Of a stretch of 40,089 nucleotides of DNA, positions 5,497 through 38,469 are shown in pieces. The notes below the pieces were generated by a model, which did not search any database, was not told the DNA's origin, and saw only the letters and a program-made list of their open reading frames with translations. Each line of letters begins with the position of its first letter. Positions within the stretch are counted from its first letter, which is position 1. The position numbers and the translations under genes were made by a program. Origin of the DNA: an uncultured Muribaculaceae bacterium (GTDB lineage Bacteria > Bacillota_I > Bacilli_A > RF39 > UBA660); assembly GCA_964370575.1 (NCBI GenBank), contig CAYJJT010000004.1, positions 1-40,089 on the forward strand, written 5' to 3'.

Positions 5497-5532
5497 ATAA
5501 ATAGATAAAGATAAGAAAGGTTGAAAATTTTT

Positions 5533-5668
5533 ATTGAGCGCATGGACAACATAGTTGTTGACGAGGATAGTAGTTATCGATTCATCAGCGGATGCTACTA
5601 CGGTTAATTATCGTTACACATATAACAAAAAGTAAAATATTAAATTACTACAAAATATATGTGAATTT
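5533..5668 (+). ncRNA. glmS ribozyme: glmS ribozyme (GlcN6P-dependent self-cleaving riboswitch)
   Basis: The hallmark core A|GCGC...GGACAAC-AUA-GUUGUU-GACGAGGAU-AGUAG-UUAUCGA...CAGCGGAUGCUACUACGG matches my memory of the Bacillus glmS ribozyme nearly string for string. A P4-like pairing CACATATA (5617-5624) / TATATGTG (5656-5663) is present. The element lies directly upstream of glmS. The predicted cleavage site is between A5537 and G5538. Confidence 0.88.
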
Positions 5669-5681
5669 ATAGGAGGCTTAT

Positions 5682-7459: not shown

Positions 7460-7494
7460 TTAAATTAATGGTAAAATTAAAATAGGTGATAAAC

Positions 7495-10695: not shown

Positions 10696-10719
10696 TATAA
10701 TATTTGTAGAGGTGAAAAT

Positions 10720-11847
10720 ATGTATGTTTGTTTACACGATAAATTATTAGATAAAGGAGTATTTAAAGAAGAATATATTAAATCTATGAATAAAGATAAA
10801 ATATGTATTTTTAATAGTGAAAATAAAATGTTTTATGATTTGAATGGTGAACTTATTAATATTAAAAATAGTATTATTTTTCCAGTTAGTGGAATTAATC
10901 AAGTTAATGAAATAAGAGAAGTTGCTGAGAAATTAAATATTAAATGTTTTATAACTAGAGAAGACGATGATAAAATAAAATCATGGTATAACTATTATAA
11001 TACTACAAGAAAAACTAAAGAATTTGACGGAATAGATTTAATAAATGAAGAAAAAATAAATTTTATAGAAAAAGAATTTGGAAGTGAATTTTTCTTTAAA
11101 ACAAAAGAAAAAGATTATAGTGCTTTATGTAATGTTGATTATTTAAGAAATAATAAATCTATTTTATATAAATCTTTAAAAAAGCATTGTGATTCTAAAT
11201 TTATTGTATCTGAAAAAGTAATAATAAATGAAGATGAACTAGGAAAATTAGAATTTAGATGTGTTGTTATTAATGGAAAAATTAGAAATATATCTAGAAT
11301 AACTGAAGATGTTGTTCATACAATAGATTCAAATATAAAATCAAAATTAGAATCAATAGTAGAAAAATTAAAGACAAGTGAATTTCCTACTTCGTATGTA
11401 GTTGATTTGATGGTTTATAATGCTAATGATAAGTTAATAACTGATGTAGTTGAGTTCAATAGTGTTTGTGCTAGTGGAATGTATTTGTACAATTCAATAA
11501 TTGATTTAGATGATTCAAATATATTACACGAAAACTTATACAAGCTTCCTAAAAATAAAACTTATATGAATAATCAATTAAAGAATACAGGAACTATAAA
11601 AATGCAATCATCTAAATTTTTTGATGTACCTGATAGTTTTGCTGAAACAGTGAAAGAATATACTGGAGAATTAGTAGGAGTTTATACTCATTCATTTAAT
11701 AATAAAAATAAAAAAAGATATCTAGATGATACTTGTTTAGGTGATATCGCTGAAAAATTTAATTTATCTGATTTATTTGTCGGGGCAGAAATAATTAATT
11801 CTGAATTTGAATTAGATGATAACTTATCAGCAAATAAGATAAAATAA
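10720..11847 (+). CDS. ATP-grasp-like protein, paralogue B
   Basis: SD GAGGTGA. It shares strings with 7495-8550: 'FPVSGINQVNEI', 'LGKLEFRCVV', 'NISRIT', 'DVVEFNSVCASGMYLYNSIIDL' and 'LHE'. Confidence 0.55.
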   Translation: MYVCLHDKLLDKGVFKEEYIKSMNKDKICIFNSENKMFYDLNGELINIKNSIIFPVSGINQVNEIREVAEKLNIKCFITREDDDKIKSWYNYYNTTRKTKEFDGIDLINEEKINFIEKEFGSEFFFKTKEKDYSALCNVDYLRNNKSILYKSLKKHCDSKFIVSEKVIINEDELGKLEFRCVVINGKIRNISRITEDVVHTIDSNIKSKLESIVEKLKTSEFPTSYVVDLMVYNANDKLITDVVEFNSVCASGMYLYNSIIDLDDSNILHENLYKLPKNKTYMNNQLKNTGTIKMQSSKFFDVPDSFAETVKEYTGELVGVYTHSFNNKNKKRYLDDTCLGDIAEKFNLSDLFVGAEIINSEFELDDNLSANKIK

Positions 11848-11877
11848 AAAGTAAAATTATAAAATTTTACTTTTTTT
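11846..11877. terminator. Bidirectional terminator shared by convergent genes
   Basis: AAAGTAAAATT (11848-11858) pairs with AATTTTACTTT (11863-11873) around the loop ATAA. An A-run lies on the 5' side and a T7 run on the 3' side. Confidence 0.7.
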
Positions 11878-12645
11878 AGTTTCTATTTCTTCTTGTAAAA
11901 CAGAAGTATAAAAGGATTCTGAATTTATTAATTTAAAATCTGTTTTTAATAAAAAATTATATAAATCTGCTATTAATTTATTATCGTGACTATTAAATAT
12001 GTTTAAAAGAGTTTCCTCTTGGTCAGTAGAAAATAATATATGTGATAGATTACTTTCATAAGAATCAATTGAATATTGACAATTTTGTAAACTACATTTA
12101 TCTACTGCATGAGTCAATGTGTTAACTGATTTTGAAACTATATTTTCATAATTAGTATTTTTATTAAAATAAATCTCTTTAGTAGTTTTTACTAATTTTA
12201 CTTCAATTGATTCATAAATTAATTTACTTAAGTAATTTACATCTAACTGAAATTTATTTAAAATTTCTATATTAATATATAAATTATCACTATTATATAA
12301 ATTATTTATAACTTGTGTTAATGATATTTGTATAGTTTCGATTATAAAAGTTATATCGGAATATAAATTAGTTATTACATTAAAATTTATATCTTTATCG
12401 TCAAAAGAAGTTAAATTATTACTAAAATTAGTTAAATAGTTATTTATAATGCTTGGTATTTTATTATTAATATTATCATTTAATTGGTCGGAAATACTGA
12501 ATATATTATTTATACTATTACTATATTTGGCACGATTAATATTTGATAGATAATTAGTAAAATCAAATAATTTAGATTGAAAATTGTTTATTATACCATT
12601 GATATCATTGATTGATTCAGATTGGATGTTTTCTAAAAATGTCAT
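11857..12645 (-). CDS. Hypothetical all-helical Asn/Ile-rich protein (helical paralogue set, short member)
   Basis: The track start is at 12672. The ATG at 12645 has GAGGTGA upstream and gives the N-terminus 'MTFLENIQ'. There is no signal peptide or TM segment, almost no Gly or Pro, and no Trp. Confidence 0.5.
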   Translation of the reverse strand: MTFLENIQSESINDINGIINNFQSKLFDFTNYLSNINRAKYSNSINNIFSISDQLNDNINNKIPSIINNYLTNFSNNLTSFDDKDINFNVITNLYSDITFIIETIQISLTQVINNLYNSDNLYINIEILNKFQLDVNYLSKLIYESIEVKLVKTTKEIYFNKNTNYENIVSKSVNTLTHAVDKCSLQNCQYSIDSYESNLSHILFSTDQEETLLNIFNSHDNKLIADLYNFLLKTDFKLINSESFYTSVLQEEIETKKSKIL

Positions 12646-12728
12646 TCTTTCACCTCGGACATATTTTAACACATATATGTAAATATTTCTAATAAAATTT
12701 AATATATTTATAAAATTTATAATATAAG

Positions 12729-12757
12729 TAGTAATGATTACTAGTTTGTGTTATAAT
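12729..12757 (+). promoter_or_regulatory. Extended -10 promoter of the hydrogenase gene, with a 7-1-7 palindrome over the -35 position
   Basis: The extended -10 is TGTTATAAT (12749-12757). The perfect inverted repeat TAGTAAT-G-ATTACTA (12729-12743) sits where a -35 element would be. Confidence 0.45.
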
Positions 12758-12780
12758 TAATTTAGGAAGTAGGTTATAAA

Positions 12781-14250
12781 ATGTCAAATAGAGTTGGAAT
12801 AAGCGAAATCAATCCTAGTATCGAACGCATTGAAGAAAAATGTGTTAGTTGTGGTCTTTGTAAAAATATATGCAAGAATTATATTGGAGTAAATAATAGT
12901 GAAGAAAATATTGTTTGTATTAATTGTGGTCAATGTGCAAATGTTTGCCCAGTAGATTCAATTGTTGAAAAAATAGAATATGATTCTTTAAAGAGACTAG
13001 TTAATAGAGAAGATAAAGTTATTATTTTTAATACATCACCATCTGTTAGAATATCTTTGGGTGAAGAGTTTGGAATGGAACAGGGTAGTTTCGTTGAAGG
13101 AAAGATGGTAGCATTACTTAGAGCATTAGGTGGAAATTATGTGCTAGATACTAACTTTAGTGCTGATTTAACAATTATGGAAGAGGCTAGTGAATTAGTT
13201 GATAGAATTATTAATAAGACTAAACCATTACCACAATTTACTAGTTGTTGTCCTGCTTGGGTTAAATTTAGTGAAATATATCATAGTAATTTATTAGAAC
13301 ATCTATCAACTGCAAAAAGTCCAATTGGTATGCAAGGAGCAACTGTTAAGACATATTTTTGTGAGAAAATGGGAATAGATCCTAGAAATATTATTAATGT
13401 AGCAGTAACTCCATGTACTGCTAAAAAATTTGAAATTAGAAGAGATGAGATGTGTGATGCTGGTAAATATCATGGCATCGATAATATGCGTGATATGGAT
13501 TATGTTATTACAACACGTGAATTGGCAATGTGGGCTAAGGAAGAGAATGTTGATTTTAGTAATTTATTAGATTCTAATTTTGATGAATTTATGGGTGAAG
13601 CAAGTGGAGCAGGGGTTATATTTGGTAACTCTGGGGGAGTTATGGAAGCTGCTCTTAGAACAGCATACAAACTTATTACTAAGGAAGAAGCTCCAGCTAA
13701 TTTTTATAATTTAACTGAAGTTAGAGGAATGAAAGAGTTTAGGGAAGCTAGTATTGATATTGGAGGACATATTATTAATGTAGCAGTTATTTATGGGACT
13801 AAGACTGTAAGTGATAATATGGATAAGTTAATTAATAGTGGTGAATATCATTTTGTTGAAGTAATGACTTGTCCAGGTGGATGTATTGGTGGTGGGGGTC
13901 AACCTAAAAATAGATCTAATAGTGAAGTCAATAAAAAAAGAATTGATGGATTATATAATAGAGATAAGAACATGAATAATAAAGTTAGTTATAATAATAA
14001 AGAAATAGATAAATTATATCAAGAATTTTATAAAGAACCACTAAGTGAATTAGCAGAAAAAATGTTACATACTACTTATGTAGATAGAAGTAATGATTTT
14101 AATATAAATATAGTTAAGGAGGTGAATAATATGGAAAAATATCGTTGTACTGTTTGTAATTATATTCATGAAGGTGAATTAACTGAAGATTTAGTATGTC
14201 CAATATGTCATTTAGGAAGTGATGTATTTGTTAAAGTAGAAGAAGAATAA
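12781..14250 (+). CDS. [FeFe]-hydrogenase catalytic subunit with an N-terminal 2x[4Fe-4S] ferredoxin domain and a C-terminal rubredoxin-like CxxC...CxxC tail
   Basis: The ferredoxin-domain cysteine motifs are 'CVSCGLCKNIC' and 'CINCGQCANVCP'. The H-cluster motifs are 'TSCCPAW', 'TPCTAKKFE' and 'EVMTCPGGCIGGGGQP'. The tail is 'YRCTVCNYIH...LVCPICH'. Confidence 0.9.
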   Translation: MSNRVGISEINPSIERIEEKCVSCGLCKNICKNYIGVNNSEENIVCINCGQCANVCPVDSIVEKIEYDSLKRLVNREDKVIIFNTSPSVRISLGEEFGMEQGSFVEGKMVALLRALGGNYVLDTNFSADLTIMEEASELVDRIINKTKPLPQFTSCCPAWVKFSEIYHSNLLEHLSTAKSPIGMQGATVKTYFCEKMGIDPRNIINVAVTPCTAKKFEIRRDEMCDAGKYHGIDNMRDMDYVITTRELAMWAKEENVDFSNLLDSNFDEFMGEASGAGVIFGNSGGVMEAALRTAYKLITKEEAPANFYNLTEVRGMKEFREASIDIGGHIINVAVIYGTKTVSDNMDKLINSGEYHFVEVMTCPGGCIGGGGQPKNRSNSEVNKKRIDGLYNRDKNMNNKVSYNNKEIDKLYQEFYKEPLSELAEKMLHTTYVDRSNDFNINIVKEVNNMEKYRCTVCNYIHEGELTEDLVCPICHLGSDVFVKVEEE

Positions 14251-14278
14251 AAAAAGAATATTACAATATTCTTTTTTT
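14250..14278. terminator. Bidirectional terminator
   Basis: AAAAAGAATATT pairs with AATATTCTTTTT around the loop ACA. It is flanked by A and T runs and lies between convergent stops. Confidence 0.75.
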
Positions 14279-15456
14279 TAATGAATTAATTTTTCTGAAT
14301 TTTCATTTTCTTTTACAACATCAATAATATCATCATAATCAATATTTTCATTACAATCTTCATATTTAGAAATAATATCTAATCCTAAATTTAAATATGA
14401 ATTAGTCATCTCATTTATTTTACGGATTTGTGATTCCTTATGATTAGTATAGTAATTTAATAAACGTGAACTAAAAGTTAATAAAATATTTTTTAATTTT
14501 TCTTTATTACTATCATCAACATAACAAATAATTTTATCAATATCATCTAAAATAATTTTATCAAAATTATTTAATTTAGTGTTTAAATAAGATTCCTTTT
14601 TATTAGATTCATAATCTTTATTATCCATAATCAAATTTAAATTAGAGTTAAATAATTTATTTATTTTATTAAAATATTTTGAATCACTAATGATGTTAGA
14701 GCTTATTATAAGATCTATTTTTTCAATATAGTTGTTTATATGAATATATGTTTTTATTGATGTAGATAAATTTAATTGTTGAATTTTCTCATCTAACTTA
14801 GTGACTTCAGCATCATATAAGATAATAAAATTATCTTTAAATGTAATAAAATCATTATTAATTTCTTCATTGATAGTTTCAATCATAATATTAGAAATAA
14901 AATCTACATTATATTTTTTTTGTTTATAATTAATTAAATAATCATTATTTTCAATAATAATGTTAGAAATTGCTTTAATCATTTCTTTATAGTTGTTAGA
15001 AGAAGATATAAATATATAATTACCTAAATTATTAATTATATCAATCACAATATCTTCTTCAGTTTCATTTTTACTAAATTCTGTATCACTATTTTCAATT
15101 GTAAAAGCAAAACGATAGTATTCTAAACTATTAATAAAATTATTAATAGTATCTTTATTATCCATTTCTTTGTTTGAATTTATAAACTCTTTTTTTAAAT
15201 CGCTTAAAACATCAATACTTTTATTTTCAATCAATTTATTATAGTAATTAATAGAATTTATCGTTTCATCTTGGTACATATCTAAAATTAAATTAGATTT
15301 ACTAGCAAGTTCTATCTCGAAATTATCACCAATATATTTTTGTATTTTATTAATATTATCTACAATTTGTTTCTTTAAATTATTGTCATATAAATTAATG
15401 ATTGATTTAAGATCTTTTTCTATAATTGTAAACATTTTATTTATAATATTTTCCAT
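14278..15456 (-). CDS. Hypothetical all-helical Asn/Ile/Asp/Lys-rich protein (helical paralogue set)
   Basis: SD GGTGA. The N-terminus is 'MENIINK'. There is no signal peptide or TM segment, I found no Pro or Trp, and there are 3 Gly by hand count. Confidence 0.5.
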   Translation of the reverse strand: MENIINKMFTIIEKDLKSIINLYDNNLKKQIVDNINKIQKYIGDNFEIELASKSNLILDMYQDETINSINYYNKLIENKSIDVLSDLKKEFINSNKEMDNKDTINNFINSLEYYRFAFTIENSDTEFSKNETEEDIVIDIINNLGNYIFISSSNNYKEMIKAISNIIIENNDYLINYKQKKYNVDFISNIMIETINEEINNDFITFKDNFIILYDAEVTKLDEKIQQLNLSTSIKTYIHINNYIEKIDLIISSNIISDSKYFNKINKLFNSNLNLIMDNKDYESNKKESYLNTKLNNFDKIILDDIDKIICYVDDSNKEKLKNILLTFSSRLLNYYTNHKESQIRKINEMTNSYLNLGLDIISKYEDCNENIDYDDIIDVVKENENSEKLIH

Positions 15457-15513
15457 TTTTCACCACATTTAAATTATATTAACATAATAATTATTATGTT
15501 TCAATATATAGTT

Positions 15514-16746
15514 TTATATTTGTTTATTTATATATTTTATTACACTATTATATTCAAGATTTTCAATTTCATTAAAACTACTATAAGCTTCACTACCAAT
15601 AAGTAAAAATATATTTCTAAACTCAGATATTTCTGTTAGTAACTTCTCAACATAATTATTAAGTGTTGTTTCTAATTCTTTTAGATAAACGGTTATTACT
15701 ATTTTTTTAGTAATAGTGTTTTCTAAATCTATTTTATTATCAATTTCTTCATTTAAATTATAATTTGATTCATTATATTTAAAATCATTTAATTGATTTG
15801 TATTATAAACACTTGGTGAACTAACATTGTTTTTATTTTGAATTTCAAAACTATTTATAAAGTCTTCACTCAATACAGCGATAGTATTTTCTAAATCTGC
15901 AGAATCATAAATATAAATTAAATCTTCATCAGTAATTGAATAAGTAAAATCAGTAATATCTTTATAATTATCTGAGAATAATAAAAGTGATTTTTCTATA
16001 TTATAATTTAAATTATTTTTAAATATAATTTCTTCTTCTTCAGAAACAAATAAATTGAAGTTTTTCATTTTATTTAATATTGTAGTATTTAATATTTCTA
16101 AATCATTTAGTAATTGTCTTTTATTTGATTCAAATATTCCATCAAACTGAGCAACTAATTTAGCATTTATAACTGCACAAACAGTATCTAGATTGTTATA
16201 TTCTTGTTGATAGTTTATATGCTCATAAATTATATTACTAATAATATTAAAACTTTTTTGTAAAAAGTCATTATATAATTTAAATTTACTATTAATTATA
16301 TTTTTCTTATATTCTTCAAAAATATTTTCTTCAATATAAACAATATTTTTAAGATTCTCTAATTTTAATTCAATTAGTAACTTATTAGTATCTATTTGAT
16401 TTTTAAGCTGTTGGAATACTATAGAAGAATCTCGTTTGAAAGAAATAATAAATTCATTATAATCAGTCACTTTAGTTAAATCTTGAGCAACTGTGTTAAT
16501 GAAATTATTAATTTTTTCTATTACAGTCATAGATATTATATTAATTTCATTTTCAATAGTATTTATAAAGTTTATTAAGTCAGTTGAATTCATAGCAATT
16601 TTAATAATATCTTTATTAACTAAAACTCTTTTTAATTCAGTACTTTCTTTAAATGGTTTATTAAATATATCATTTGTTATATCTTCTAATTCAGTATTTA
16701 TTTCATATACAATGTCTTCTAATAATACTTGGATGTTTTCTTTCAT
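15514..16746 (-). CDS. Hypothetical all-helical Asn/Ile/Glu-rich protein (helical paralogue set)
   Basis: The track start is at 16791. The ATG at 16746 has AGGTGA upstream and gives 'MKENIQVLL'. There is no signal peptide or TM segment. Confidence 0.5.
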   Translation of the reverse strand: MKENIQVLLEDIVYEINTELEDITNDIFNKPFKESTELKRVLVNKDIIKIAMNSTDLINFINTIENEINIISMTVIEKINNFINTVAQDLTKVTDYNEFIISFKRDSSIVFQQLKNQIDTNKLLIELKLENLKNIVYIEENIFEEYKKNIINSKFKLYNDFLQKSFNIISNIIYEHINYQQEYNNLDTVCAVINAKLVAQFDGIFESNKRQLLNDLEILNTTILNKMKNFNLFVSEEEEIIFKNNLNYNIEKSLLLFSDNYKDITDFTYSITDEDLIYIYDSADLENTIAVLSEDFINSFEIQNKNNVSSPSVYNTNQLNDFKYNESNYNLNEEIDNKIDLENTITKKIVITVYLKELETTLNNYVEKLLTEISEFRNIFLLIGSEAYSSFNEIENLEYNSVIKYINKQI

Positions 16747-16798: not shown

Positions 16799-17875
16799 TC
16801 AGTAAATTGGAGTTAATGATCCAACAGTAATTAGGGGAGTATTAGTGATGTAATTGATAAATGCAACGTCACCGTTAGTTAAAATAACAGGTTTTGCATC
16901 TAATATTAATTTATCATTTTCATATATTTCAATATTATGAATAACTGCTTTCCCATCAATATATCCGCGAATCCATTTAGCCTCATTATTAGCAAATAAG
17001 TAAAGTTCATAAATACTATGCCATTCAGTATCATCGGGATCACTGTATAAAACGTCGTTTAAATATAAACCATTCTTACTAATTTCTGCTTTTATAACTT
17101 TATTGCTTGGAAAGCCAGTAGCTCCAAAGTTATAACTTATATCATTGAATTGTAGTAAATTTTCTTGGTTAATAGGTGATCCGTCATAAGAACCATACGC
17201 AATTCCAAACATTTGATTTTTAAAAGCTCTTCTAGAAGAAAATAACCAAACAGCTGTAGTTTTAGATTCAATTATTGTAAAATTTATAATTACTTTGGTG
17301 TTATTAGTTGGATATATACCAGTTTTCACATAAGAGTTAGTAGTAGTAGTTGCTCCAGCTAATGGAGTCGCCCCTTCAATACTCGGAATGTCGCTTGCTA
17401 ATACAAAATCAAATAATAAGTTAGAAATACCTGTTTGATTATTATAAAATGAACTTAGTGATAATTTAAAAGTAATTTCTTCACCGCTTTTTAATGTAGT
17501 TCCTAGTATTAAATTATCTATTCTGGTAGATAAATATTTATTTGTTACTAATATTTCTTTTAAACCATTATAAATATAATCATCATTTGTGTTATTTTTA
17601 ATAGTAATATCATAAGTGATAATACCACTAGTAGAAGTAATATTAGTATTAAAAGTTATTTTAGTATCTTCATAAGTAGTATTTGATATTTCATTTGAAA
17701 GATAGTTATTAGTTAAAGTAGCATTTATAATTTCCAATTTTTTATTTGGCATTATTTTTACATTACCACTTATATTAAGAGATGTATTTAGTGCAGAATA
17801 ACCTATACTCATTGTTGTTACAGAAAAAAAGAGAAAGTAAATAATAAAATAGTTTAACTTCTTGATAGTAATCAA
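16799..17875 (-). CDS. Secreted two-domain protein: an N-terminal TasA/camelysin-like module (paralogue of 34939 and 35581) plus a ~170-aa C-terminal beta-rich module
   Basis: The hydrophobic N-terminus is followed by 'SIGYSALNTSLNISGNVKI', which parallels 'SIGFAAFSTTLNINGAAQV' in ORF 35581. Shared motifs are 'ITYDITIKNNTNDDY' and 'GEEITFKLSL'. The stop is TGA. The start is uncertain. The TTG at 17875 abuts the SD-like AAGGGG with no spacer. An ATC at 17866 has a 9-nt spacer and would give 'MKKLNYF...'. Confidence 0.55.
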   Translation of the reverse strand: MITIKKLNYFIIYFLFFSVTTMSIGYSALNTSLNISGNVKIMPNKKLEIINATLTNNYLSNEISNTTYEDTKITFNTNITSTSGIITYDITIKNNTNDDYIYNGLKEILVTNKYLSTRIDNLILGTTLKSGEEITFKLSLSSFYNNQTGISNLLFDFVLASDIPSIEGATPLAGATTTTNSYVKTGIYPTNNTKVIINFTIIESKTTAVWLFSSRRAFKNQMFGIAYGSYDGSPINQENLLQFNDISYNFGATGFPSNKVIKAEISKNGLYLNDVLYSDPDDTEWHSIYELYLFANNEAKWIRGYIDGKAVIHNIEIYENDKLILDAKPVILTNGDVAFINYITNTPLITVGSLTPIY

Positions 17876-18001
17876 CCCCTTAGTATTAGTTATATTATTT
17901 ACTAAAATTTAATAAATATGGGAAAATATGGAAATAATTAATATTATTAGTACATAAAATTTAAAATGTGTTAAAATTATTATTGGAAGGAAAGTGAAAT
18001 A

Positions 18002-19750
18002 ATGTTTAAATTATTAAAAAGAATATCTAAACGTGAGTTACTATTAATAGTTCCTGTAATTATATTTGTAGTAATTCAAGTTTATTTAGATTTAGAATTA
18101 CCAGATTATATATCTGAGATGACTAAGATACTACAAACACCAGGTAGTAAAGTAGAGGATATATTTGAGCCAGGATTTAAAATGCTTTTATGTGCTCTTG
18201 GTAGTTTTGTATCAGCAATAATAACTGGTTATTTTGTAGCGTATATTGCAGCATCATTCTCGCAAAGACAGAGAAAAGATGTATTTTATAAAGTAGAGGA
18301 TTTTAGTATGGCTGAAATCAAGAAATTTTCAGTTAGTAGTTTAATTGTTAGAACAAATAATGATATATTAAATATTCAAAGATTTGTAGCAATGGGATTA
18401 CAAGTAATTATTAAAGCTCCAATCTTATCAATTTGGGCAGTTAGTAAAATTGCTGGGAAAAGTTTAACTTGGTCGGCTTATACTGGAATAGCGGTATTAG
18501 TTTTATTAGTGTTAATTACAACTATTGTAATATTAGTATTACCTAAAACTAAAATTATCCAAAAACTAACAGATAAACTAAATGCTATTACTCGTGAAAA
18601 TATAACAGGGATAAGAGTTATAAAAGCTTTTAATGCTAGTAGTTTTCAAAAAGAAAAATTTGAAGTTAGTAATGATGATGTTACAAATACAAATATTTTT
18701 ATAAATAAAGCAATGTCAATAATGATGCCTTTTATGTCATTAATTATGTCTAGTTTATCATTAGTTATTTATTTAACAGGAGCATATATTATAAACGATG
18801 CACTTATACCAGATAAATTAACTTTATTTAGTGATATGATTGTGTTCTCATCATATGCTGTACAAGTAATTATGGCATTTATGATGCTTGTTATTATAAT
18901 TATTATTTATCCAAGAGCTAGTGTAAGTGCTAAACGTGTACTTGAAGTTATTAAAACTGATACTAGTATTAAAAGTGGTAAATATAAAGATAATAAAAAT
19001 AATGGGGAAATAGAATTTGTTGATGTTAGTTTTAAATATCCTGATGCTGAAGAATCTGTTTTAGAAAATATAAGTTTTAAAGCTAAAAAGGGTGAGACTA
19101 TTGCTTTTATTGGAGGAACAGCTAGTGGTAAATCGTCACTTGTTAATTTAATTCCAAGATTTTATGATGTAACTAGTGGTCAAATATTAATTAATGGAAT
19201 TAATGTTAAAGAATATGAACTAGAAAATTTATATTCTAAATTTGGTTATGTCCCACAAAGTTCAGTTATCTTTAAAGGAACTGTAAAAAGTAATGTAGAT
19301 TACGGAAGTAGTGAAGTTAGTGAAGATGACATTGTTAAAGCTCTTGATGTTGCTCAAGCTACTAATTTTGTTCAAAATATGGAAAAAGGAATAGATGCAT
19401 CACTAGCGAGTCGTGGTACTAATATAAGTGGTGGACAAAAACAAAGAGTTAGTATTGCTCGTGCAGTTGCACTAAAACCAGAATTTTATATATTTGATGA
19501 TTCATTCTCAGCACTAGATTATAAAACAGATTCTGTACTTAGACGTGCACTTAAAAAATATACTAAAGACACAACAACTTTAATTGTAGGTCAAAGAGTT
19601 GGTACTATTATGAATGCTGATAAAATTATCGTATTAGATGAGGGTAAAGTAGTTGGAATTGGTACACATAATGAACTACTTAAAAGTTGTGAAATTTATA
19701 AAGAAATTGCCTTATCGCAATTATCAGAAGAGGAGCTAAATCATGAATAG
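18002..19750 (+). CDS. ABC exporter half-transporter (TMD-NBD), subunit carrying the degenerate Walker B and H-loop
   Basis: Six TM segments plus an NBD. Walker A is 'GGTASGKSS', the signature is 'ISGGQKQR', Walker B is 'YIFDDSFSALD' (D in place of the catalytic E), and the H-loop is 'VGQRVG' (Q in place of H). Confidence 0.85.
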   Translation: MFKLLKRISKRELLLIVPVIIFVVIQVYLDLELPDYISEMTKILQTPGSKVEDIFEPGFKMLLCALGSFVSAIITGYFVAYIAASFSQRQRKDVFYKVEDFSMAEIKKFSVSSLIVRTNNDILNIQRFVAMGLQVIIKAPILSIWAVSKIAGKSLTWSAYTGIAVLVLLVLITTIVILVLPKTKIIQKLTDKLNAITRENITGIRVIKAFNASSFQKEKFEVSNDDVTNTNIFINKAMSIMMPFMSLIMSSLSLVIYLTGAYIINDALIPDKLTLFSDMIVFSSYAVQVIMAFMMLVIIIIIYPRASVSAKRVLEVIKTDTSIKSGKYKDNKNNGEIEFVDVSFKYPDAEESVLENISFKAKKGETIAFIGGTASGKSSLVNLIPRFYDVTSGQILINGINVKEYELENLYSKFGYVPQSSVIFKGTVKSNVDYGSSEVSEDDIVKALDVAQATNFVQNMEKGIDASLASRGTNISGGQKQRVSIARAVALKPEFYIFDDSFSALDYKTDSVLRRALKKYTKDTTTLIVGQRVGTIMNADKIIVLDEGKVVGIGTHNELLKSCEIYKEIALSQLSEEELNHE

Positions 19751-21530: not shown

Positions 21531-21559
21531 AAAAAGAAAACAATTAGTTTTCTTTTTTT
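21531..21559. terminator. Bidirectional terminator between the ABC operon and the arc/agu array
   Basis: AAAAGAAAAC pairs with GTTTTCTTTT around the loop AATTA, with flanking A and T runs. The arcC stop lies in the loop. Confidence 0.7.
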
Positions 21560-34938: not shown

Positions 34939-35526
34939 ATGGCTATGAATAATAAAAAATATATAATTATTTTAATATTAATTGCAATTATGATTATTAC
35001 TTTTAGCTTTGCATTAGTAAGTCAAGTATTAGTTATAAATGGTACTGCTTCTATAAATGCTGGCAATGGTTGGAATATTTCATTTGCTAATTTAGATGAA
35101 ATAGTTGTTAGTGACTCAACGATTGTTAAAGAACTATCTAAACCAAATATTGTTGAAGATACTACTGCTATAAATAATTTTGATGTAGAATTTATGTCTG
35201 GGCCTGCAAATTTTTATTACACATTTGATGTTAAAAATACAGGGAATTTAGATGCAAAGTTACATACAATTAATTTAGAAAGTATAAATTGTTATCCGTC
35301 AAATAAAAATGATGACATTGCTATTTATGAAGCTAAAGAAGTATGTAAGTACATTGATGTGGATTTGACTTATGAAGATGGAACACCTGTAAAACCAGGA
35401 GATACACTTGATAGTGGAGAATCCAAAAAGATGAGAATGAATGTAGAATATAATTCTAATGTTGCTATATCTAACAGTGTGGAAGTAGATAATATTGGAT
35501 TTAATCTAAATTACATTCAAGATTAA
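34939..35526 (+). CDS. TasA/camelysin-like secreted protein with a SipW-type signal, paralogue 1 (probable minor subunit)
   Basis: The N-terminal hydrophobic segment is followed by 'FALVSQVLVINGTASINA'. Motifs shared with ORF 35581 are 'YYTFDVKNTGNLDAKL', a Cys...Cys pair, 'LTYEDGTPV' and 'GESKKMRMNVEY'. It is also 195 aa. The SD is weak. Confidence 0.6.
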   Translation: MAMNNKKYIIILILIAIMIITFSFALVSQVLVINGTASINAGNGWNISFANLDEIVVSDSTIVKELSKPNIVEDTTAINNFDVEFMSGPANFYYTFDVKNTGNLDAKLHTINLESINCYPSNKNDDIAIYEAKEVCKYIDVDLTYEDGTPVKPGDTLDSGESKKMRMNVEYNSNVAISNSVEVDNIGFNLNYIQD

Positions 35527-35580
35527 TTAAGATATAATTCTTGTGAGAATTGTATATAAATATGTCTAGAGGAGGAAATT

Positions 35581-36168
35581 ATGAAGACAGAAAGACAAAC
35601 AAAAATTTTAGCTTTAATTGCTATCGTTATTGCAATTGGTGGACTATCAATTGGATTTGCAGCATTTAGTACAACATTAAATATAAATGGTGCAGCACAA
35701 GTAGAGGCTTCAAGTTGGGAAATTATATTTGAAAACTTAAGTGCAGAAACAGTTACAGGAACTGCAACAGAATTAGCAGCTCCAACTATTGCAACAGGAT
35801 CTACTACTATTAGTGGATTTGATGCTAGTTTAACAACTCCAGGTGATACTATTGTTTATAACTTTGATGTAACTAACAATGGTACATTTGATGCAGAAAT
35901 TGGAACTCTTACAGTAGCGGCTCCAACTTGTACAGGAACTGGTGCTACAGCAACTACTGATGCAGCAAATGTATGTGGTAACTTAACTTACACTTTAACT
36001 TATACTGATGGTACAGCAGTAGCTGTAAATGATACATTAGATGCTGGACAAACTAGAGGAATGAAAATTACTTTAACTTATGCAGCAGATACTACAGCAG
36101 CAGAACTACCAGCAGCTTTAGTTGAAGTAACAACTTTAGATGCTTCAATTATATACAATCAAGCATAG
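35581..36168 (+). CDS. TasA/camelysin-like secreted protein with a SipW-type signal, paralogue 2 (probable major, highly expressed subunit)
   Basis: It has a strong SD, GAGGAGG. The signal region is 'LSIGFAAFSTTLNINGAAQVEA'; compare TasA 'AAFND' and camelysin 'AYFSD'. Other motifs are 'VYNFDVTNNGTFDAEI', 'PTCTG...NVCGN' and 'GQTRGMKITLTY'. By hand count, 40-45% of residues are Ala, Thr or Gly. Confidence 0.6.
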   Translation: MKTERQTKILALIAIVIAIGGLSIGFAAFSTTLNINGAAQVEASSWEIIFENLSAETVTGTATELAAPTIATGSTTISGFDASLTTPGDTIVYNFDVTNNGTFDAEIGTLTVAAPTCTGTGATATTDAANVCGNLTYTLTYTDGTAVAVNDTLDAGQTRGMKITLTYAADTTAAELPAALVEVTTLDASIIYNQA

Positions 36169-36193
36169 TCATAGATAGAAAGTGATGTAAATA

Positions 36194-37333
36194 ATGAAAA
36201 TTAGTCATGTAAAATTATACGTGATACTAATACTTATTATTTCACTAAGTTTAACCAATGTATTTCTATTAAATTTAAATATTTTAAACACTATAAATTT
36301 AATATTGTTCTTAGCTATAGTATTAGTAAGAATATTACTTGGATATGAAAAAGTAAGAACTCGTTACTTAAAAGATTCAATAATAACTATCTTATTATAT
36401 ACTTTGAGTTATTATATTATAATATATTTAGCAGGATTATTTATAGGATATTTATCATCGGGGTATAATAATACTTTAGAGGGAATCTTTAAAAATATTA
36501 TACCTTATATGATATACATATTTTTAGTAGAAATACTTAGGTATTCTATAAATAAAAAGAGCAGTGAAAGCGCTCTTTTAATTATGTTTTCTACTATAAC
36601 TTTTATTTTAATAGATTCAATAATTTATGGTCGTCTAGGAAGTATATCAAGTAGTTCAGATATAATTGAATTTTTATCGATAGGTTTATTTCCGGCAATT
36701 AGTAGAAATATATTGTTAACTTATACGGTGACTAAAATAGGTTTTATTCCAAACATTATATATCGATATATAATGGAACTAACGGTGTTTATATTACCAA
36801 TTTCTCCTGATTTTGGAGAATATTTATATGCGATAATTATGTTAGTTTATCCATTAGGATTATTAGGAATATTTAGTATAACGTTTAATAAAAACAAAAA
36901 AAATAAAATTAGTTCAAGAGAAAATAAGTTGGCAAATAGAATAATTGTTACGACAATAGTTATAGTTATGCTAGTAACAGTTTCACTAACAAGTGGGATG
37001 TTTAAATATTATGCACTAAGCATAGGTTCTGGTTCGATGGAAAGTGAAATCGAAGTAGGTGATGTGGTAATTGTAAAAAAATTGTCCGAAAAAGAAATAT
37101 TAAAGTTAGAAGTTGGAGAGATTTTAGTTTTTAAACAAAAAAATATAGTTGTAGTTCATAGAATTGTAGAAATTGATAATACTAATAATGAATTAAGAAT
37201 TATCACTAAAGGTGATAATAATGAGGAAAATGATAATTGGATCGTAACGAACGAGGATATCATTGGAACAACTTCATTTAAAATTAAATATATAGGTTTA
37301 CCAACTATATGGCTTAATGAAGCAATTAGATAA
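36194..37333 (+). CDS. SipW/archaeal-type signal peptidase I fused to an N-terminal eight-TM domain of unknown function
   Basis: The C-terminal ~130 aa carry 'SIGSGSMESEIEVGDVVIV' (Ser nucleophile), 'VVHRIVEI' (His) and 'ITKGDNNEEND'. Before this come a Lys-rich loop and one TM anchor, and before those about 230 aa containing eight hydrophobic segments. Confidence 0.7.
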   Translation: MKISHVKLYVILILIISLSLTNVFLLNLNILNTINLILFLAIVLVRILLGYEKVRTRYLKDSIITILLYTLSYYIIIYLAGLFIGYLSSGYNNTLEGIFKNIIPYMIYIFLVEILRYSINKKSSESALLIMFSTITFILIDSIIYGRLGSISSSSDIIEFLSIGLFPAISRNILLTYTVTKIGFIPNIIYRYIMELTVFILPISPDFGEYLYAIIMLVYPLGLLGIFSITFNKNKKNKISSRENKLANRIIVTTIVIVMLVTVSLTSGMFKYYALSIGSGSMESEIEVGDVVIVKKLSEKEILKLEVGEILVFKQKNIVVVHRIVEIDNTNNELRIITKGDNNEENDNWIVTNEDIIGTTSFKIKYIGLPTIWLNEAIR

Positions 37334-37344
37334 GAGGTGTAAAA

Positions 37345-38469
37345 ATGTCTAAGAAAATCAAATATGAGGGGAAAGATAAATCATTTGAAGTGCCTAAAAG
37401 AAGAAGAAAATATAAACGTGGTGCAGTATTGTTTTTTTCAATATTAGCATTTATGATTTCTTTAATATTAGGAACAATAGCATTAGTTAATGGTTATACT
37501 TTTGAAGATAAATCTAACGATGTTACATACTCTGAAATTGGTTCTTCTAATTACAAAGTATATTTAAAAGAGAATAGCTATTTTGAACAAGCATATCTTG
37601 GAGAAGATATGGCTTATATATCTGATATAATTAATTCTATTAATGTTAGTTTTAACTACAGTTATAAATCTAGTGATATTCTAAATTATAATTATGACAA
37701 TAAAGTTACAGCAACATTATATATAAATGATAGTGTTACTGATAAAGAATTATTTAAAGAAGAAGAAATTCTTTTAGAATTAGAAAAAGAAGAATTATCA
37801 AGTGATAAATTTAACTTTAATAAAGATGTTGATATTGATTATGATAAATATAATGAAAAAGTAAATGCTTTGAAAAAAGAATATGGTGTTCAAATTGAAA
37901 GTAAATTAGTTGTAACTATGGATATCGCAACAACAGGAAGTGATTTAGATGAAAATGCTGAATTTTCTAAAAATAATTCTATGAGTGTAGAAATTCCATT
38001 AAGTGAACAAACTATTAATATTAATAGTATTAATAAAAATATTTTAGAAGAAGGAACATTAAATGTTACTAATGAAATGGGAATATCTAATTTATTTTTA
38101 GTTATATTATCTGCAATATTCTATGGTATAGCGACACTTTATTTAGCAAAATGTATAAAAACATATATTCAAATTATTAACAAAAGAGATTTATATCAAT
38201 TAACTATTAAAAAATATTTACGTGAGTATGATCGTATGATTGTAACAAGTTCACAACCTGATTTAAATGAGAATGTGTTTGAAAATAAAATAAGAGTAAT
38301 GTCTATTGAAGAATTAATAGACGCTCATGATTCAACAGGTTCACCAATTGTATATTATGAAGTTATTCCAAATGAAAAAAGTTACTTTATAATTATTAAT
38401 GGACTTACATTGTATAAACTAACAATTTCTAGAGCTTATTTAGAACAACATAAAAATGGTAAAAATTAA
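37345..38469 (+). CDS. Two-TM membrane protein (DUF5305-like by memory), partner of SipW-type peptidases
   Basis: SD AGAGGTG. It has a basic N-terminus 'KRRRKYKRG', then TM1, a ~200-aa ecto-domain, TM2 'LFLVILSAIFYGIATLYLA', and a ~110-aa cytoplasmic tail. Confidence 0.45.
   Translation: MSKKIKYEGKDKSFEVPKRRRKYKRGAVLFFSILAFMISLILGTIALVNGYTFEDKSNDVTYSEIGSSNYKVYLKENSYFEQAYLGEDMAYISDIINSINVSFNYSYKSSDILNYNYDNKVTATLYINDSVTDKELFKEEEILLELEKEELSSDKFNFNKDVDIDYDKYNEKVNALKKEYGVQIESKLVVTMDIATTGSDLDENAEFSKNNSMSVEIPLSEQTININSINKNILEEGTLNVTNEMGISNLFLVILSAIFYGIATLYLAKCIKTYIQIINKRDLYQLTIKKYLREYDRMIVTSSQPDLNENVFENKIRVMSIEELIDAHDSTGSPIVYYEVIPNEKSYFIIINGLTLYKLTISRAYLEQHKNGKN

What the first reader, a model, noticed from the sequence alone, without database searches (positions are those of the whole stretch)
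11857..16746. Three paralogous-looking all-helical, Asn/Ile-rich proteins sharing an M-x-ENI N-terminus, two of them in an operon with the secreted TasA-like protein
Seen in the sequence:
- With SD-supported starts, the three proteins are about 262, 392 and 410 aa. They begin MTFLENIQ, MENIINK and MKENIQ.
- All lack signal peptides and TM segments. They have almost no Gly or Pro and no Trp, and they are acidic.
- Two of them follow the secreted protein 16799-17875 on the minus strand with gaps of about 52 and 57 nt.
- The third is separated from them only by the convergent hydrogenase gene, which is insulated by terminators.
- I recognise no enzymatic motif in any of them.

Inference: this is a family of long helical-bundle or coiled-coil proteins genetically tied to a surface-fibre paralogue. 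Candidate roles are cytoplasmic scaffold, chaperone, or non-classically exported partners. As far as I can tell this gene set matches no named system.
Basis: partly seen in the sequence, partly recalled or inferred. Interest (0 to 1): 0.65.

Follow-up and report, generated by a model that had tools for sequence, protein, structure and literature searches.

The report
Fast-evolving helical orphan proteins
Three real but family-less, all-helical, acidic proteins sit in two hypervariable gene slots on either side of a conserved hydrogenase gene in an uncultured low-GC Firmicute; they are not demonstrably one family and evolve almost neutrally, and similar proteins recur next to a variable secreted fibre-type protein in the one relative found, but their function is still only a guess.

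Summary
The three ORFs are real genes. They have SD-supported starts, and the chance of no stop codon is 1e-14 to 1e-21. Gly+Ala+Arg+Pro is 2-4%, there is no Trp, pI is about 4.6, and there is no signal peptide or TM segment. They look helical.

They are not detectably paralogous. BLASTP E is at least 0.24, and hhalign probability is at most 0.4%, the same as controls. The shared N-terminal ENI is unlikely by chance (about 1e-4), and A and C share an exact 13-mer. The motif is not kept in the orthologues of the one relative found.

No homologue appeared in 5.8 billion clusters, nor for C410 in 1.84 billion representatives. Housekeeping proteins on this contig are also singletons, so the lineage is barely sampled.

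One relative (GCA_964369865.1) has the same gene order. Its neighbours are 79-90% identical. The slots hold a 213-aa protein (A262-like, about 30%), a 418-aa protein (N-half C410-like, C-half B392-like) and a 540-aa secreted protein. That secreted protein shares T358's N-domain (E 1e-10) and is directly followed by the 213-aa protein.

dN/dS is about 0.65-0.9, against 0.07-0.18 for neighbours.

T358 resembles the subunits of an AbpX/TasA-type fibre locus at 34.9-38.5 kb. Function remains inferred: non-enzymatic helical partners of variable surface proteins.

The parts
11857..12645 (-). A262: 262-aa acidic, Gly/Pro/Trp-poor all-helical orphan. It is the positional and weak sequence counterpart of r213 in the relative. 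It fills variable slot 1.
   Evidence: ORF and SD. Composition. AF2 gives four long helices at pLDDT 60-77 over residues 1-160. Match to r213 is colinear at 27-32% identity: BLASTP E 0.012 and 0.027, hhalign E 0.003, 0/400 shuffles under three null models.
12622..12634 (-). Exact 13-mer AGAAAACATCCAA encoding (x)ENIQ at codons 5-8 of A262.
   Evidence: There are only two exact copies in the window; the other is in C410. It uses the rare codons AAC (12%) and ATC (6%).
12781..14250 (+). [FeFe]-hydrogenase gene. It is the conserved anchor between the two variable slots.
   Evidence: Pfam Fe_hyd_lg_C E 1e-83. It is 79% amino-acid and 80% DNA identical to the relative, and the conserved block runs 12683-14278.
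14249..14278 (.). AT-rich bidirectional hairpin flanked by A and T runs, between the convergent hydrogenase and B392. It is terminator-like.
   Evidence: Folding gives -8.9/-9.4 kcal/mol, z -4.5/-5.2, with 0/200 shuffles as good. The GC-based scan did not call it.
14278..15456 (-). B392: 392-aa helical orphan, the last gene of the T358-C410-B392 string. Its C-terminal half resembles the C-terminal half of r418.
   Evidence: C-halves give z 4.6-5.4 with 0/400-500 shuffles. hhalign E 0.076. Composition-corrected BLASTP is not significant, E 1.1.
15457..15513 (-). C410-B392 intergenic region (57 nt). It holds a perfect 20-bp palindrome AACATAATAATTATTATGTT (15481-15500) and a promoter-like TTGAAA-17-TGtTAATAT.
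   Evidence: Sequence. Promoter scan. The fold is weak, z -1.8.
15514..16746 (-). C410: 410-aa helical orphan. Its N-terminal half and its 5' leader resemble those of r418.
   Evidence: The exhaustive search found only itself. N-halves give z 2.6-3.7. Leader alignment. Hydrophobic periodicity 3.5, z 6.6.
16729..16741 (-). Second copy of the 13-mer AGAAAACATCCAA, at codons 3-6 of C410.
16799..17875 (-). T358: secreted or anchored protein. The N-terminal ~170 aa is a TasA-superfamily/AbpX-subunit-like domain. The C-terminal ~180 aa is a different, variable domain. It is the first gene of the string.
   Evidence: The N-domain matches r540 at E 1e-10. It aligns colinearly with the 195-aa subunits. 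The C-terminus weakly resembles the C-terminus of r1087, E 0.006. There is no Pfam hit.
34939..38469 (+). AbpX-type (TasA-superfamily) fibre locus: two 195-aa acidic subunits, a multi-TM archaeal-type signal peptidase I and a DUF5305 protein. It is the probable home system of T358.
   Evidence: Subunits are paralogous, E 3.5e-24. TIGR02228 scores 88.5 bits, above its cut-off. DUF5305 scores 65 bits. There are at least 7 hydrophobic segments before the S26 domain. One subunit has a sub-threshold Peptidase_M73 hit, E 0.041. Literature.

Best explanation
SHOWN
- A262, B392 and C410 are genuine protein-coding genes for cytoplasmic, acidic, Gly/Pro/Trp-free alpha-helical-bundle proteins with no enzymatic signature.
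- They occupy two sharply bounded hypervariable slots on either side of a conserved hydrogenase gene.
- A sister genome has the same gene order. Its slots hold proteins of the same character, but only about 27-32% identical, while its neighbours are 79-90% identical.

INFERRED FROM WEAK SIGNALS
- There are at least two families. A-type is A262 plus r213. B/C-type is B392, C410 and r418.
- B392 and C410 are probably old tandem paralogues. r418 looks like a C/B hybrid of the same length.
- Selection seems to keep the reading frame, the amphipathic helical pattern and the composition, but hardly any specific residue (dN/dS about 0.65-0.9).

INFERRED MECHANISM (about 0.25-0.3 on its own)
- They are non-enzymatic helical partners co-expressed with variable secreted proteins that carry a TasA/AbpX-type donor-strand N-domain and swappable C-terminal binding domains.
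- They would act inside the cell as holdase, adaptor or regulatory partners of that surface module, and diverge along with it.
For: - Real genes: SD-supported starts. P(no stop) is 1e-14 to 1e-21. GC3 equals the neighbours', so codon usage is native. Open counterparts exist in the relative.
- Helical and cytoplasmic.
- No known family.
- Hypervariable slots: blastn shows conserved blocks at 10716-11777, 12683-14278 and 17903-21535 (70-84% identity). Nothing aligns over A262 or over B392-C410-T358, apart from 49 nt of T358's N-terminal coding region.
- Orthology and paralogy signals.
- Rates: dN/dS is 0.65 (A262/r213), 0.90 (B392/r418) and 0.56 (T358 N-domain/r540 N-domain), against 0.07-0.18 for ABC, FtsW, PBP, CK and hydrogenase.
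- Link to secreted proteins in both genomes: T358 to C410 to B392 with 52- and 57-nt gaps and no hairpin after T358. r540 to r213 has a 76-nt gap.
- T358 belongs with the AbpX-type locus.
- Rarity of this protein type: among 232 ORFs of at least 150 aa in all fetched loci, GARP under 5% occurs only in these five proteins.
Against: - The homology signals outside A262/r213 are weak. Composition-corrected BLASTP does not see B392/r418 (E 1.1) or B392/C410 (E 0.69). A non-colinear pair (r418 C-half against B392 N-half) also reaches z 3.2-4.1, so shuffle z-scores near 3-4 are not clean evidence in these sequences.
- dN/dS rests on optimised alignments at about 30% identity and on near-saturated dS.
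- The partner of the secreted gene differs between the genomes (A-type in the relative, B/C-type here). A262 and r418 each stand alone, so the link may be mere co-residence in a variable region.
- There are no expression data; no public run holds the region.
- The structure models have low confidence, so no fold comparison is reliable.
- A Sec-exported fibre subunit has no known need for a cytoplasmic helical partner; AbpX polymerises without a chaperone.
Confidence: 0.45

Rival explanations
1. Coincidental neighbours. The three are unrelated or barely related low-constraint helical proteins of a poorly sampled lineage. They sit in a recombination-prone variable region and have no functional tie to T358 or to each other. 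Their likeness comes from AT mutation pressure acting on weakly constrained helical proteins.
For: - No pairwise homology.
- GC3 is the same as the neighbours', so the low GC comes from the amino-acid make-up.
- Even housekeeping proteins of this contig are singletons at 90% identity, so orphan status is partly a sampling effect.
- Partner combinations differ between the two genomes.
- dN/dS is near 1.
Against: - GARP of 2-4% is well below the roughly 8% floor of other weakly conserved proteins in the same genome.
- The protein type recurs in the same slots in the relative, directly downstream of a T358-type gene.
- The ENI/13-mer coincidence.
- Frames of 262-418 codons have stayed open over dS of about 0.8-1.
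Confidence: 0.28
2. The three form one paralogous family marked by an N-terminal M-x-ENI tag. The tag would be a targeting or non-classical export signal tying them to the surface fibre.
For: - ENI lies within the first 8 residues of all three and of none of the 30 other proteins. Chance is about 1e-4.
- A and C share an exact 13-mer with rare codons.
- Composition, charge and helicity are the same.
- B and C show a weak colinear signal, z 2.1-3.1.
Against: - No homology between A and B/C by BLASTP, hhalign or 2-sequence profiles.
- The motif is absent from the counterparts in the relative (r213 MNFFNKIQ, r418 MEFNRLKF), so it is not under long-term selection.
- The motif was noticed post hoc.
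Confidence: 0.1
3. A defence, immunity or conflict cassette. The slots are a variable island. The helical orphans would be immunity-like or anti-phage proteins, diversifying under an arms race, and possibly cognate to the variable C-terminal domains of the secreted proteins (polymorphic-toxin logic).
For: - Sharp hypervariable boundaries within conserved flanks.
- Near-neutral or higher dN/dS.
- Orphan status.
- The secreted proteins have a conserved N-domain and swapped C-domains, and a small cytoplasmic gene follows them.
- The relative has a helicase-bearing insertion 4 kb away.
Against: - No PADLOC or PHROGs hit, and no viral or plasmid relatives.
- Codon usage is native.
- The C-terminal domains look like binding domains, not toxins. 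The FGE-sulfatase-like hit is sub-threshold at E 0.029, and the 'WLFGARR' domain is shared with an Ig-repeat surface protein.
- At 262-410 aa the proteins are large for immunity proteins.
- Positional orthology is retained rather than replaced.
Confidence: 0.1
4. Components of an alpha-helical pore-forming toxin of the ClyA/Hbl/Nhe/XaxAB type, which are multi-component all-helical proteins of 260-410 aa.
For: - Size, all-alpha character, multi-gene arrangement and low mutual similarity resemble tripartite alpha-PFTs.
- A262 models as a long four-helix bundle.
Against: - No hydrophobic head or beta-tongue segment; maximum 19-residue hydropathy is at most 1.1.
- No signal peptides, which Gram-positive members carry (established knowledge).
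- No Pfam hit even at E 1.
- Foldseek's best E is 0.94, and none of the 50 listed matches is ClyA-like.
Confidence: 0.04
5. Spurious or decaying ORFs that are not functional genes.
For: - No homologues.
- Extreme composition.
- dN/dS up to 0.9.
Against: - P(no stop) is 1e-14 to 1e-21.
- Good SD sequences at the correct spacing.
- Amphipathic helical periodicity, z 6.6-6.8.
- Open counterparts exist in the relative despite dS of about 0.8-1.
Confidence: 0.03

Closest known systems
Accessory genes of TasA-superfamily / AbpX-type donor-strand fibre loci (minor subunits, tip proteins, multi-TM SPase I, DUF5305; B. subtilis TapA as chaperone)
   Same: T358 has the subunit-like N-terminal domain plus an extra C-terminal domain, like the predicted tip or minor subunits. 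The window carries the matching SPase I/DUF5305/subunit locus. The helical genes are co-oriented directly downstream of T358-type genes in two genomes (preprint 10.64898/2026.01.04.697558).
   Different: All described accessory factors are secreted or membrane proteins. No cytoplasmic all-helical partner is described, and AbpX assembles without a chaperone. T358 lies 17 kb from the core locus. The helical proteins match no TapA, SipW or DUF5305 model.
Lineage-specific ORFans and FYMINK-rich, GARP-poor proteins of AT-rich genomes (nucleotide bias shaping amino-acid composition; established knowledge, e.g. Singer and Hickey 2000; ORFans reviewed in PMC2718499)
   Same: No homologues, the lowest GC in the region, FYMINK 48-55%, GARP 2-4%, and near-neutral evolution.
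   Different: They are long (262-410 aa) with native codon usage. They are positionally conserved in a relative rather than newly acquired. GARP is far below other weakly constrained proteins of the same genome, which points to a specific Gly/Pro-free helical build.
Polymorphic toxin / immunity cassettes (conserved N-terminal delivery domain, variable C-terminal domain, downstream fast-evolving cytoplasmic partner)
   Same: The gene grammar matches. T358 and r540 share an N-domain (E 1e-10) but have unrelated C-domains, and each is followed by orphan cytoplasmic genes inside a hypervariable slot.
   Different: No toxin domain is recognisable and the C-domains look like binding modules. The partners are 2-4 times larger than typical immunity proteins. 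No known delivery system (T7SS, CDI, Rhs) is present.
ClyA/Hbl/Nhe/XaxAB alpha-helical pore-forming toxins; TelA; talin-rod or spectrin-like helical bundles
   Same: All-alpha, 260-410 aa, long antiparallel helices. Generic long bundles are the only Foldseek neighbours, all non-significant.
   Different: No sequence-family hit, no hydrophobic membrane-insertion segment, no signal peptide, and no significant structural match.

Membership tests
One paralogous family comprising A262, B392 and C410 | Detectable pairwise or profile homology between the members | tested here: not met
   BLASTP E 0.24-0.69. hhalign probability is 0.1-0.3%, equal to the reversed and unrelated controls. The 2-sequence profiles A3 against A4 give 0.2%, A4 against C410 0.4%, and A3 against C410 0.3%.
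One paralogous family comprising A262, B392 and C410 | B392 and C410 specifically are tandem paralogues | tested here: inconclusive
   Lengths are similar (392/410, and r418 is 418). The colinear SW z is 2.1-3.1 (p about 0.003-0.03). r418's N-half resembles C410's N-half (z 2.6-3.7) and its C-half resembles B392's C-half (z 4.6-5.4). r418's leader aligns with C410's leader. Composition-corrected BLASTP is not significant.
One paralogous family comprising A262, B392 and C410 | Conserved N-terminal M-x-ENI motif | tested here: not met
   The motif is present in the three window proteins (chance about 1e-4). It is absent in the relative's counterparts r213 (MNFFNKIQ) and r418 (MEFNRLKF).
TasA superfamily / AbpX-type fibre subunit (for T358 and the 195-aa proteins) | Sequence match to the TasA/camelysin (Peptidase_M73) or AbpX jelly-roll core | tested here: inconclusive
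   35581-36168 matches Peptidase_M73 at E 0.041, 14.1 bits against a 22.5 cut-off. T358 has no hit. A PDB profile search found no hit.
TasA superfamily / AbpX-type fibre subunit (for T358 and the 195-aa proteins) | Signal peptide followed by an amphipathic N-terminal donor strand shared with the major subunits | tested here: met
   The motifs SIGYSALNTSLNISGNVKI (T358), SIGFAAFSTTLNINGAAQV (35581-36168) and SVGYSALNTELYISGTATV (r540) align. The AbpX-specific aromatic-2/acidic-4 rule could not be checked because the cleavage site is unknown.
TasA superfamily / AbpX-type fibre subunit (for T358 and the 195-aa proteins) | Adjacent dedicated multi-TM signal peptidase I and DUF5305 accessory protein | tested here: met
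   This is met for the 34939-38469 locus. TIGR02228 scores 88.5 bits (cut-off 51.85) with at least 7 hydrophobic segments upstream. DUF5305 scores 65 bits (cut-off 29) with 2 TM segments. T358 itself lies 17 kb away, so for T358 the link is by homology only.
ClyA/Hbl/Nhe/XaxAB alpha-pore-forming toxins | Family profile match, a hydrophobic head or beta-tongue segment, and (in Gram-positives) a Sec signal peptide | tested here: not met
   No Pfam hit at E up to 1. Maximum 19-residue hydropathy is 0.85-1.12. No signal peptide. Foldseek's best E is 0.94, and none of the 50 listed matches is a ClyA-family chain. The fold itself is not testable with models at pLDDT 44-57.
TelA / toxic-anion-resistance helical proteins | Pfam TelA profile match | tested here: not met
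   No hit at E up to 1 in Pfam or NCBIfam.
Known anti-phage defence systems / phage proteins | Match to PADLOC or PHROGs models, or relatives on viral contigs | tested here: not met
   PADLOC gives only QatB at E 0.035 and 11.7 bits, which is noise. PHROGs gives none. Viral contig scans give none.
Polymorphic toxin-immunity pair | Recognisable toxin domain at the C-terminus of the secreted protein, with cognate protection by the downstream gene | not testable with these tools
   The C-domains have no significant family hit. The weak hints point to binding-type folds. Toxicity and protection need experiments.

The most novel reading that the evidence does not exclude
The helical orphans are dedicated, co-diversifying partners of variable TasA/AbpX-type tip adhesins. 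That would make them a previously undescribed class of accessory factor for donor-strand-exchange fibres in Gram-positive bacteria. They could be cytoplasmic, or exported by a non-classical route. Each variable secreted head domain would be paired with its own fast-evolving helical-bundle protein, and the two slots around the hydrogenase gene would act as a cassette-shuffling site.
Probability: 0.1. Interest if true: 0.6.

Novelty: new variant of a known kind. Interest (0 to 1): 0.35.

Why it matters
If the link is real, TasA-superfamily (AbpX-type) fibre systems of gut-type Firmicutes would have an unrecognised layer. That layer would be variable tip proteins paired with rapidly diverging helical partners, which bears on how these bacteria vary their adhesion or matrix.

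Independently of function, the locus is a clean example of two things:
- Sharply bounded hypervariable gene slots sit inside otherwise 80-90% conserved synteny.
- AT mutation pressure plus a helical build can yield proteins with 2-4% Gly+Ala+Arg+Pro that look alike without detectable homology. This is a caution for 'paralogue by eye' calls in low-GC genomes.

As it stands the evidence base is two MAG contigs and no expression data, so the practical weight is modest.

Tried and rejected
- Word-indexed searches of all three proteins against 5.8 billion clusters found only themselves. An exhaustive phmmer of C410 against 1.84 billion representatives also found only itself.
- Pfam, NCBIfam, PHROGs and PADLOC gave nothing meaningful.
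- The hydrogenase was used as an anchor in genome contigs and metagenome contigs. Relatives were at most 70% identical and showed no synteny.
- T358 in metagenome and viral contigs, and A, B and C in viral contigs, found nothing. tblastn against phage and plasmid records found nothing.
- Exact look-ups of window proteins for their contig are not on record. No public sequencing runs hold the region, so co-transcription could not be tested.
- Single-sequence AF2 of B392 gave pLDDT 43.9, too poor for a fold search. The A262 model (pLDDT 56.5) gave only non-significant generic bundles in Foldseek/PDB, best E 0.94.
- Genetic code 4 was considered because Trp is absent. It was rejected: the other genes use TGG, and T358 ends in TGA TGA TAA.
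- A shared upstream regulatory element was sought in the three 5' regions. Only the SD is shared.
- Long internal repeats were sought and not found.
- The four GARP-poor ORFs around the hydrogenase of L001 were tested as possible relatives. They form their own pair of paralogues and are unrelated to A, B and C.
- A literature search for the study accession and for similar proteins found nothing useful.

Full report
1. WHAT IS IN THE SEQUENCE

The window is a complete 40,089-bp contig of about 25% GC. It comes from a walled, low-GC Firmicute. It carries a PBP with a PASTA domain, MraY, FtsW, a glmS ribozyme, an [FeFe]-hydrogenase, and arginine and agmatine deiminase pathways.

On the minus strand lie:
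- A262, at 11857-12645
- B392, at 14278-15456
- C410, at 15514-16746
- T358, at 16799-17875

The hydrogenase (12781-14250, plus strand) lies between A262 and B392.

Each ATG is preceded by a GGTGA-type Shine-Dalgarno sequence at normal spacing, and the public gene calls have the same lengths. Code 11 applies, because T358 ends in TGA TGA TAA and the other genes use TGG. At the local base composition a codon is a stop with probability 0.11. Open frames of 262-410 codons therefore have chance probabilities of 3e-14 to 7e-22. These are genes.

2. THE COMPOSITION CLAIM

The composition claim is confirmed.
- Asn is 15-16%, Ile 13-17%, Gly under 1%, Pro at most 0.5%, and Trp zero.
- Gly+Ala+Arg+Pro is 2.3-3.9%, against at least 7.8% in every other protein of the window.
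- FYMINK residues make up 48-55%.
- pI is 4.5-4.7.
- No 19-residue window exceeds a hydropathy of 1.1, so there is no TM segment or signal peptide.

GC3 (0.087-0.109) is the same as in the neighbours. The 17-19% GC of these genes therefore comes from their amino-acid make-up, not from foreign codon usage.

Helicity is supported in three ways:
- AF2 (single sequence) gives only helices for A262. Mean pLDDT is 56.5, residues 1-160 are at 60-77, and there are four helices of 33-37 residues.
- AF2 gives only helices for B392 as well, but at pLDDT 43.9, which is low confidence.
- Hydrophobic periodicity peaks at 3.8 residues for A (z 6.8), 3.5 for C (z 6.6) and 3.8 for B (z 2.9). T358 peaks at 2.1, which is beta-like.

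3. ARE THEY PARALOGUES?

Direct tests say no.
- BLASTP E-values are 0.24-0.69.
- Smith-Waterman z-scores against shuffles are 2.4, 1.2 and 3.1. Unrelated controls give 1.3-2.4, and reversed sequences score about the same.
- hhalign probabilities are 0.1-0.3%, as for reversed or unrelated sequences.

The one non-trivial shared feature is the N-terminal ENI.
- It occurs within the first eight residues of all three proteins and of none of the other 30 proteins. Composition-preserving simulations give fewer than 5e-5 to 2.5e-4.
- A262 and C410 encode xENIQ with the identical 13-mer AGAAAACATCCAA. These are its only two exact copies in the window. It uses the rare codons AAC (12% of Asn codons) and ATC (6% of Ile codons).
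- Upstream regions share nothing but the SD.

4. ORPHAN STATUS AND ITS CAVEAT

None of the three has a homologue among 5.8 billion protein clusters. C410 has none among 1.84 billion representatives read exhaustively by phmmer. Pfam, NCBIfam, PHROGs and PADLOC give nothing. Viral, plasmid and phage collections give nothing either.

The caveat is sampling. The hydrogenase, MraY, GlmS, arginine deiminase, OTCase, the ABC transporters and the PBP of this contig are also singletons at 90% identity. The organism has in effect been seen once.

5. A RELATIVE

FtsW was the exception. It shares a 90% cluster with a protein of GCA_964369865.1, contig CAYJFL010000002.1. The contig was fetched as L022 and L023.

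Gene order is conserved, and identities to the window are as follows:

| Protein | Identity (%) |
|---|---|
| FtsW | 90 |
| MraY | 89 |
| PBP | 89 |
| ABC582 | 89 |
| ABC595 | 88 |
| Carbamate kinase | 85 |
| GlmS | 81 |
| Hydrogenase | 79 |
| Deacetylase | 66 |
| R2K1 | 66 |
| YfjL-like | 59 |
| bPH | 56 |
| R2K2 | 55 |

The two gene orders, in window orientation, are:
- Relative: FtsW> [3.8-kb insertion] R2K2> r1087> <r213 <r540 hyd> <r418 ABC582> ABC595>
- Window: FtsW> R2K2> <A262 hyd> <B392 <C410 <T358 ABC582> ABC595>

blastn shows conserved blocks at window positions 10716-11777 (70%), 12683-14278 (80%) and 17903-21535 (84%). There is no DNA similarity over A262 or over B392-C410-T358. 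The one exception is 49 nt in the signal and donor-strand coding part of T358. The variable segments therefore end at the gene boundaries. These are two hypervariable slots around a conserved hydrogenase gene.

6. WHAT FILLS THE SLOTS IN THE RELATIVE

- r213 has GARP 3.8% and no Trp. r418 has GARP 4.5% and no Trp. Both are of the same protein type.
- Among 232 ORFs of at least 150 aa in all fetched DNA, GARP under 5% occurs only in A, B, C, r213 and r418. Four ORFs beside the hydrogenase of L001 reach 5.1-5.9%. Two of these (x280 and x286) are paralogues of each other, and none of the four matches A, B or C.
- r213 aligns with A262 from first to last residue at 27-32% identity. BLASTP gives two colinear segments at E 0.027 and 0.012. 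hhalign gives E 0.003. SW z is 3.4-4.5, with 0/400 under uniform, within-window and block-permutation nulls.
- r418 behaves like a hybrid.
  - Its C-terminal half matches the C-half of B392 (z 4.6-5.4, 0/400-500).
  - Its N-terminal half matches the N-half of C410 (z 2.6-3.7).
  - Its 5' leader aligns with the T358-C410 spacer, including 12 identical bases around the SD.
  - Like B392, it ends convergent to the hydrogenase.
- With lengths of 392, 410 and 418 aa, the simplest reading is that B392 and C410 are old tandem paralogues. r418 would be either a recombinant between such a pair or the single ancestral copy.
- The caveats are real. Composition-corrected BLASTP does not see these matches (E 1.1 and 0.69). 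One non-colinear comparison also reaches z 3.2-4.1.
- Two-sequence profiles of the A-type and the B-type do not match each other or C410. Probability is at most 0.4%.
- The ENI motif is not kept. r213 starts MNFFNKIQ and r418 starts MEFNRLKF.

7. RATES

Nei-Gojobori estimates are as follows:

| Genes | dN/dS |
|---|---|
| ABC transporters, FtsW, PBP, CK, GlmS, hydrogenase | 0.07-0.18 |
| R2K1 | 0.27 |
| R2K2, YfjL-like | about 0.5 |
| T358 N-domain / r540 N-domain | 0.56 |
| A262 / r213 | 0.65 |
| B392 / r418 | 0.90 |

dS is 0.7-1.1 throughout. The figures are rough, because dS is near saturation and the alignments are optimised. They still say that very few residues are constrained, although the frames stay open and the helical pattern persists.

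8. THE SECRETED NEIGHBOUR

- T358's first 170 residues match r540 at E 1e-10 and 32% identity.
- They align colinearly with two 195-aa acidic proteins at 34939-35526 and 35581-36168. Those two are paralogues (E 3.5e-24).
- The 195-aa proteins are followed by a 379-aa archaeal-type signal peptidase I. It scores 88.5 bits on TIGR02228 and has at least 7 hydrophobic segments ahead of the S26 domain.
- A DUF5305 protein with two TM segments comes next.
- This is the layout reported for AbpX-type loci of the TasA superfamily: a multi-TM SPase I, a DUF5305 accessory protein, and minor and tip subunits (preprint 10.64898/2026.01.04.697558).
- One subunit has a sub-threshold camelysin/TasA hit, E 0.041.
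- The C-terminal domains differ.
  - T358's C-terminal domain weakly resembles the C-terminus of the Ig-repeat protein r1087 (E 0.006).
  - r540's C-terminal domain gives a sub-threshold FGE-sulfatase hit (E 0.029).
- T358 and r540 thus look like fibre minor or tip subunits with swappable binding heads.
- r540 is followed after 76 nt by r213.
- T358 is followed after 52 nt by C410, with no hairpin (z +0.6). After a further 57 nt comes B392. That spacer holds a 20-bp palindrome and a promoter-like site.
- The only terminator-like element is an AT hairpin between B392 and the hydrogenase.

9. INTERPRETATION

Shown:
- The three are real genes for a helical, cytoplasmic-type protein class with no known family.
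- They lie in two hypervariable slots.
- Counterparts of the same class sit in the same slots of a second genome.
- In both genomes a T358-type gene is directly followed by such a protein.

Inferred:
- There are at least two families, A-type and B/C-type.
- B392 and C410 are probably tandem paralogues.
- Sequence evolution is near-neutral under a constraint on fold and composition.

Guessed (about 0.25-0.3):
- They act as non-enzymatic partners of the variable secreted proteins, as holdase, adaptor or regulator.

Rivals:
- Mere co-residence in a variable region (0.28).
- The single-family, N-terminal-tag idea (0.10).
- A defence or immunity-type cassette (0.10).
- ClyA-type toxins (0.04).
- Spurious ORFs (0.03).

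10. VERDICT

The 'paralogous family' reading is not supported for A against B/C, and the ENI motif is not conserved. The tie to a TasA-type secreted protein gains one independent instance.

The finding is moderately interesting as a hypervariable surface-associated locus with an unusual protein class. It rests on two MAG contigs and has no expression or structural support. Interest is 0.35.

Noticed in passing
window 34939-38469 (+): A complete AbpX-type (TasA-superfamily) fibre locus. It has two paralogous 195-aa acidic subunits (pI 4.3 and 4.05), a 379-aa signal peptidase I with a long multi-TM N-terminal region, and a DUF5305 protein with two TM segments. It matches the layout described in the preprint 10.64898/2026.01.04.697558.
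   Followed up: partly
window 12622-12634 and 16729-16741 (-): The exact 13-mer AGAAAACATCCAA occurs at codons 5-8 of A262 and codons 3-6 of C410, with the rare codons AAC and ATC. The relative's A-type gene has AATAAAATACAA at the equivalent place. Micro-conversion, selection on the early coding region and chance are all possible; it remains unexplained.
   Followed up: partly
window 7486-8550 and 10720-11847 (+): Two paralogous R2K-clade ATP-grasp proteins (43% identical, E 8e-77) bracket mraY-ftsW in a division/cell-wall cluster that has no Mur ligase genes nearby. Both are conserved in the relative, at 66% and 55%.
   Followed up: no
window 15481-15500: A perfect 20-bp palindrome AACATAATAATTATTATGTT lies in the C410-B392 spacer and overlaps a promoter-like TTGAAA-17-TGtTAATAT. 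It could be an operator or an AT hairpin. Its fold is only weakly better than shuffles (z -1.8).
   Followed up: partly
window 17870-17885 (-): T358's listed TTG start abuts its SD (AAGGGG-TTG, spacing 0). The alignment with r540 puts r540's Met opposite T358 residue 4, an ATC codon 9 nt after the SD. The true start codon of T358 is therefore uncertain.
   Followed up: no
L022 11078-14914 (relative, GCA_964369865.1): A 3.8-kb insertion lies between ftsW and R2K2 and is absent from the window. It has a helicase-like 547-aa ORF interrupted by a run of N, ORFs with internally repeated segments, and a duplicated 22-codon copy of the ftsW 3' end at 14784-14849. This suggests a mobile element with a target duplication.
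   Followed up: no
L001 3154-7600: In a third low-GC contig (hydrogenase 68% identical) the hydrogenase is again flanked on both sides by GARP-poor (5-6%) ORFs, three of them Trp-free. Two of them (286 and 280 aa) are paralogues (E 1e-14). They are unrelated in sequence to A, B and C. The record is labelled Muribaculaceae, which fits poorly with 23.7% GC.
   Followed up: partly
window 16802-17335 (-) and L023 10669-11250 (-): T358's C-terminal domain and the C-terminus of the 1087-aa Ig-repeat surface protein of the relative share a 'WLF[GS][AS]RR' block (E 0.006). It may be a shared binding module with no Pfam model.
   Followed up: partly
window 5526-5673 (+): A glmS ribozyme (Rfam RF00234, 65.8 bits) lies upstream of glmS. 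It is the only Rfam hit in the window, and there are no tRNA genes.
   Followed up: yes
window 32830-34773 (+): A 647-aa fusion of a MATE/MurJ-like transporter with a C-terminal cytidylate-kinase-like domain (Cytidylate_kin2, E 7e-42).
   Followed up: no
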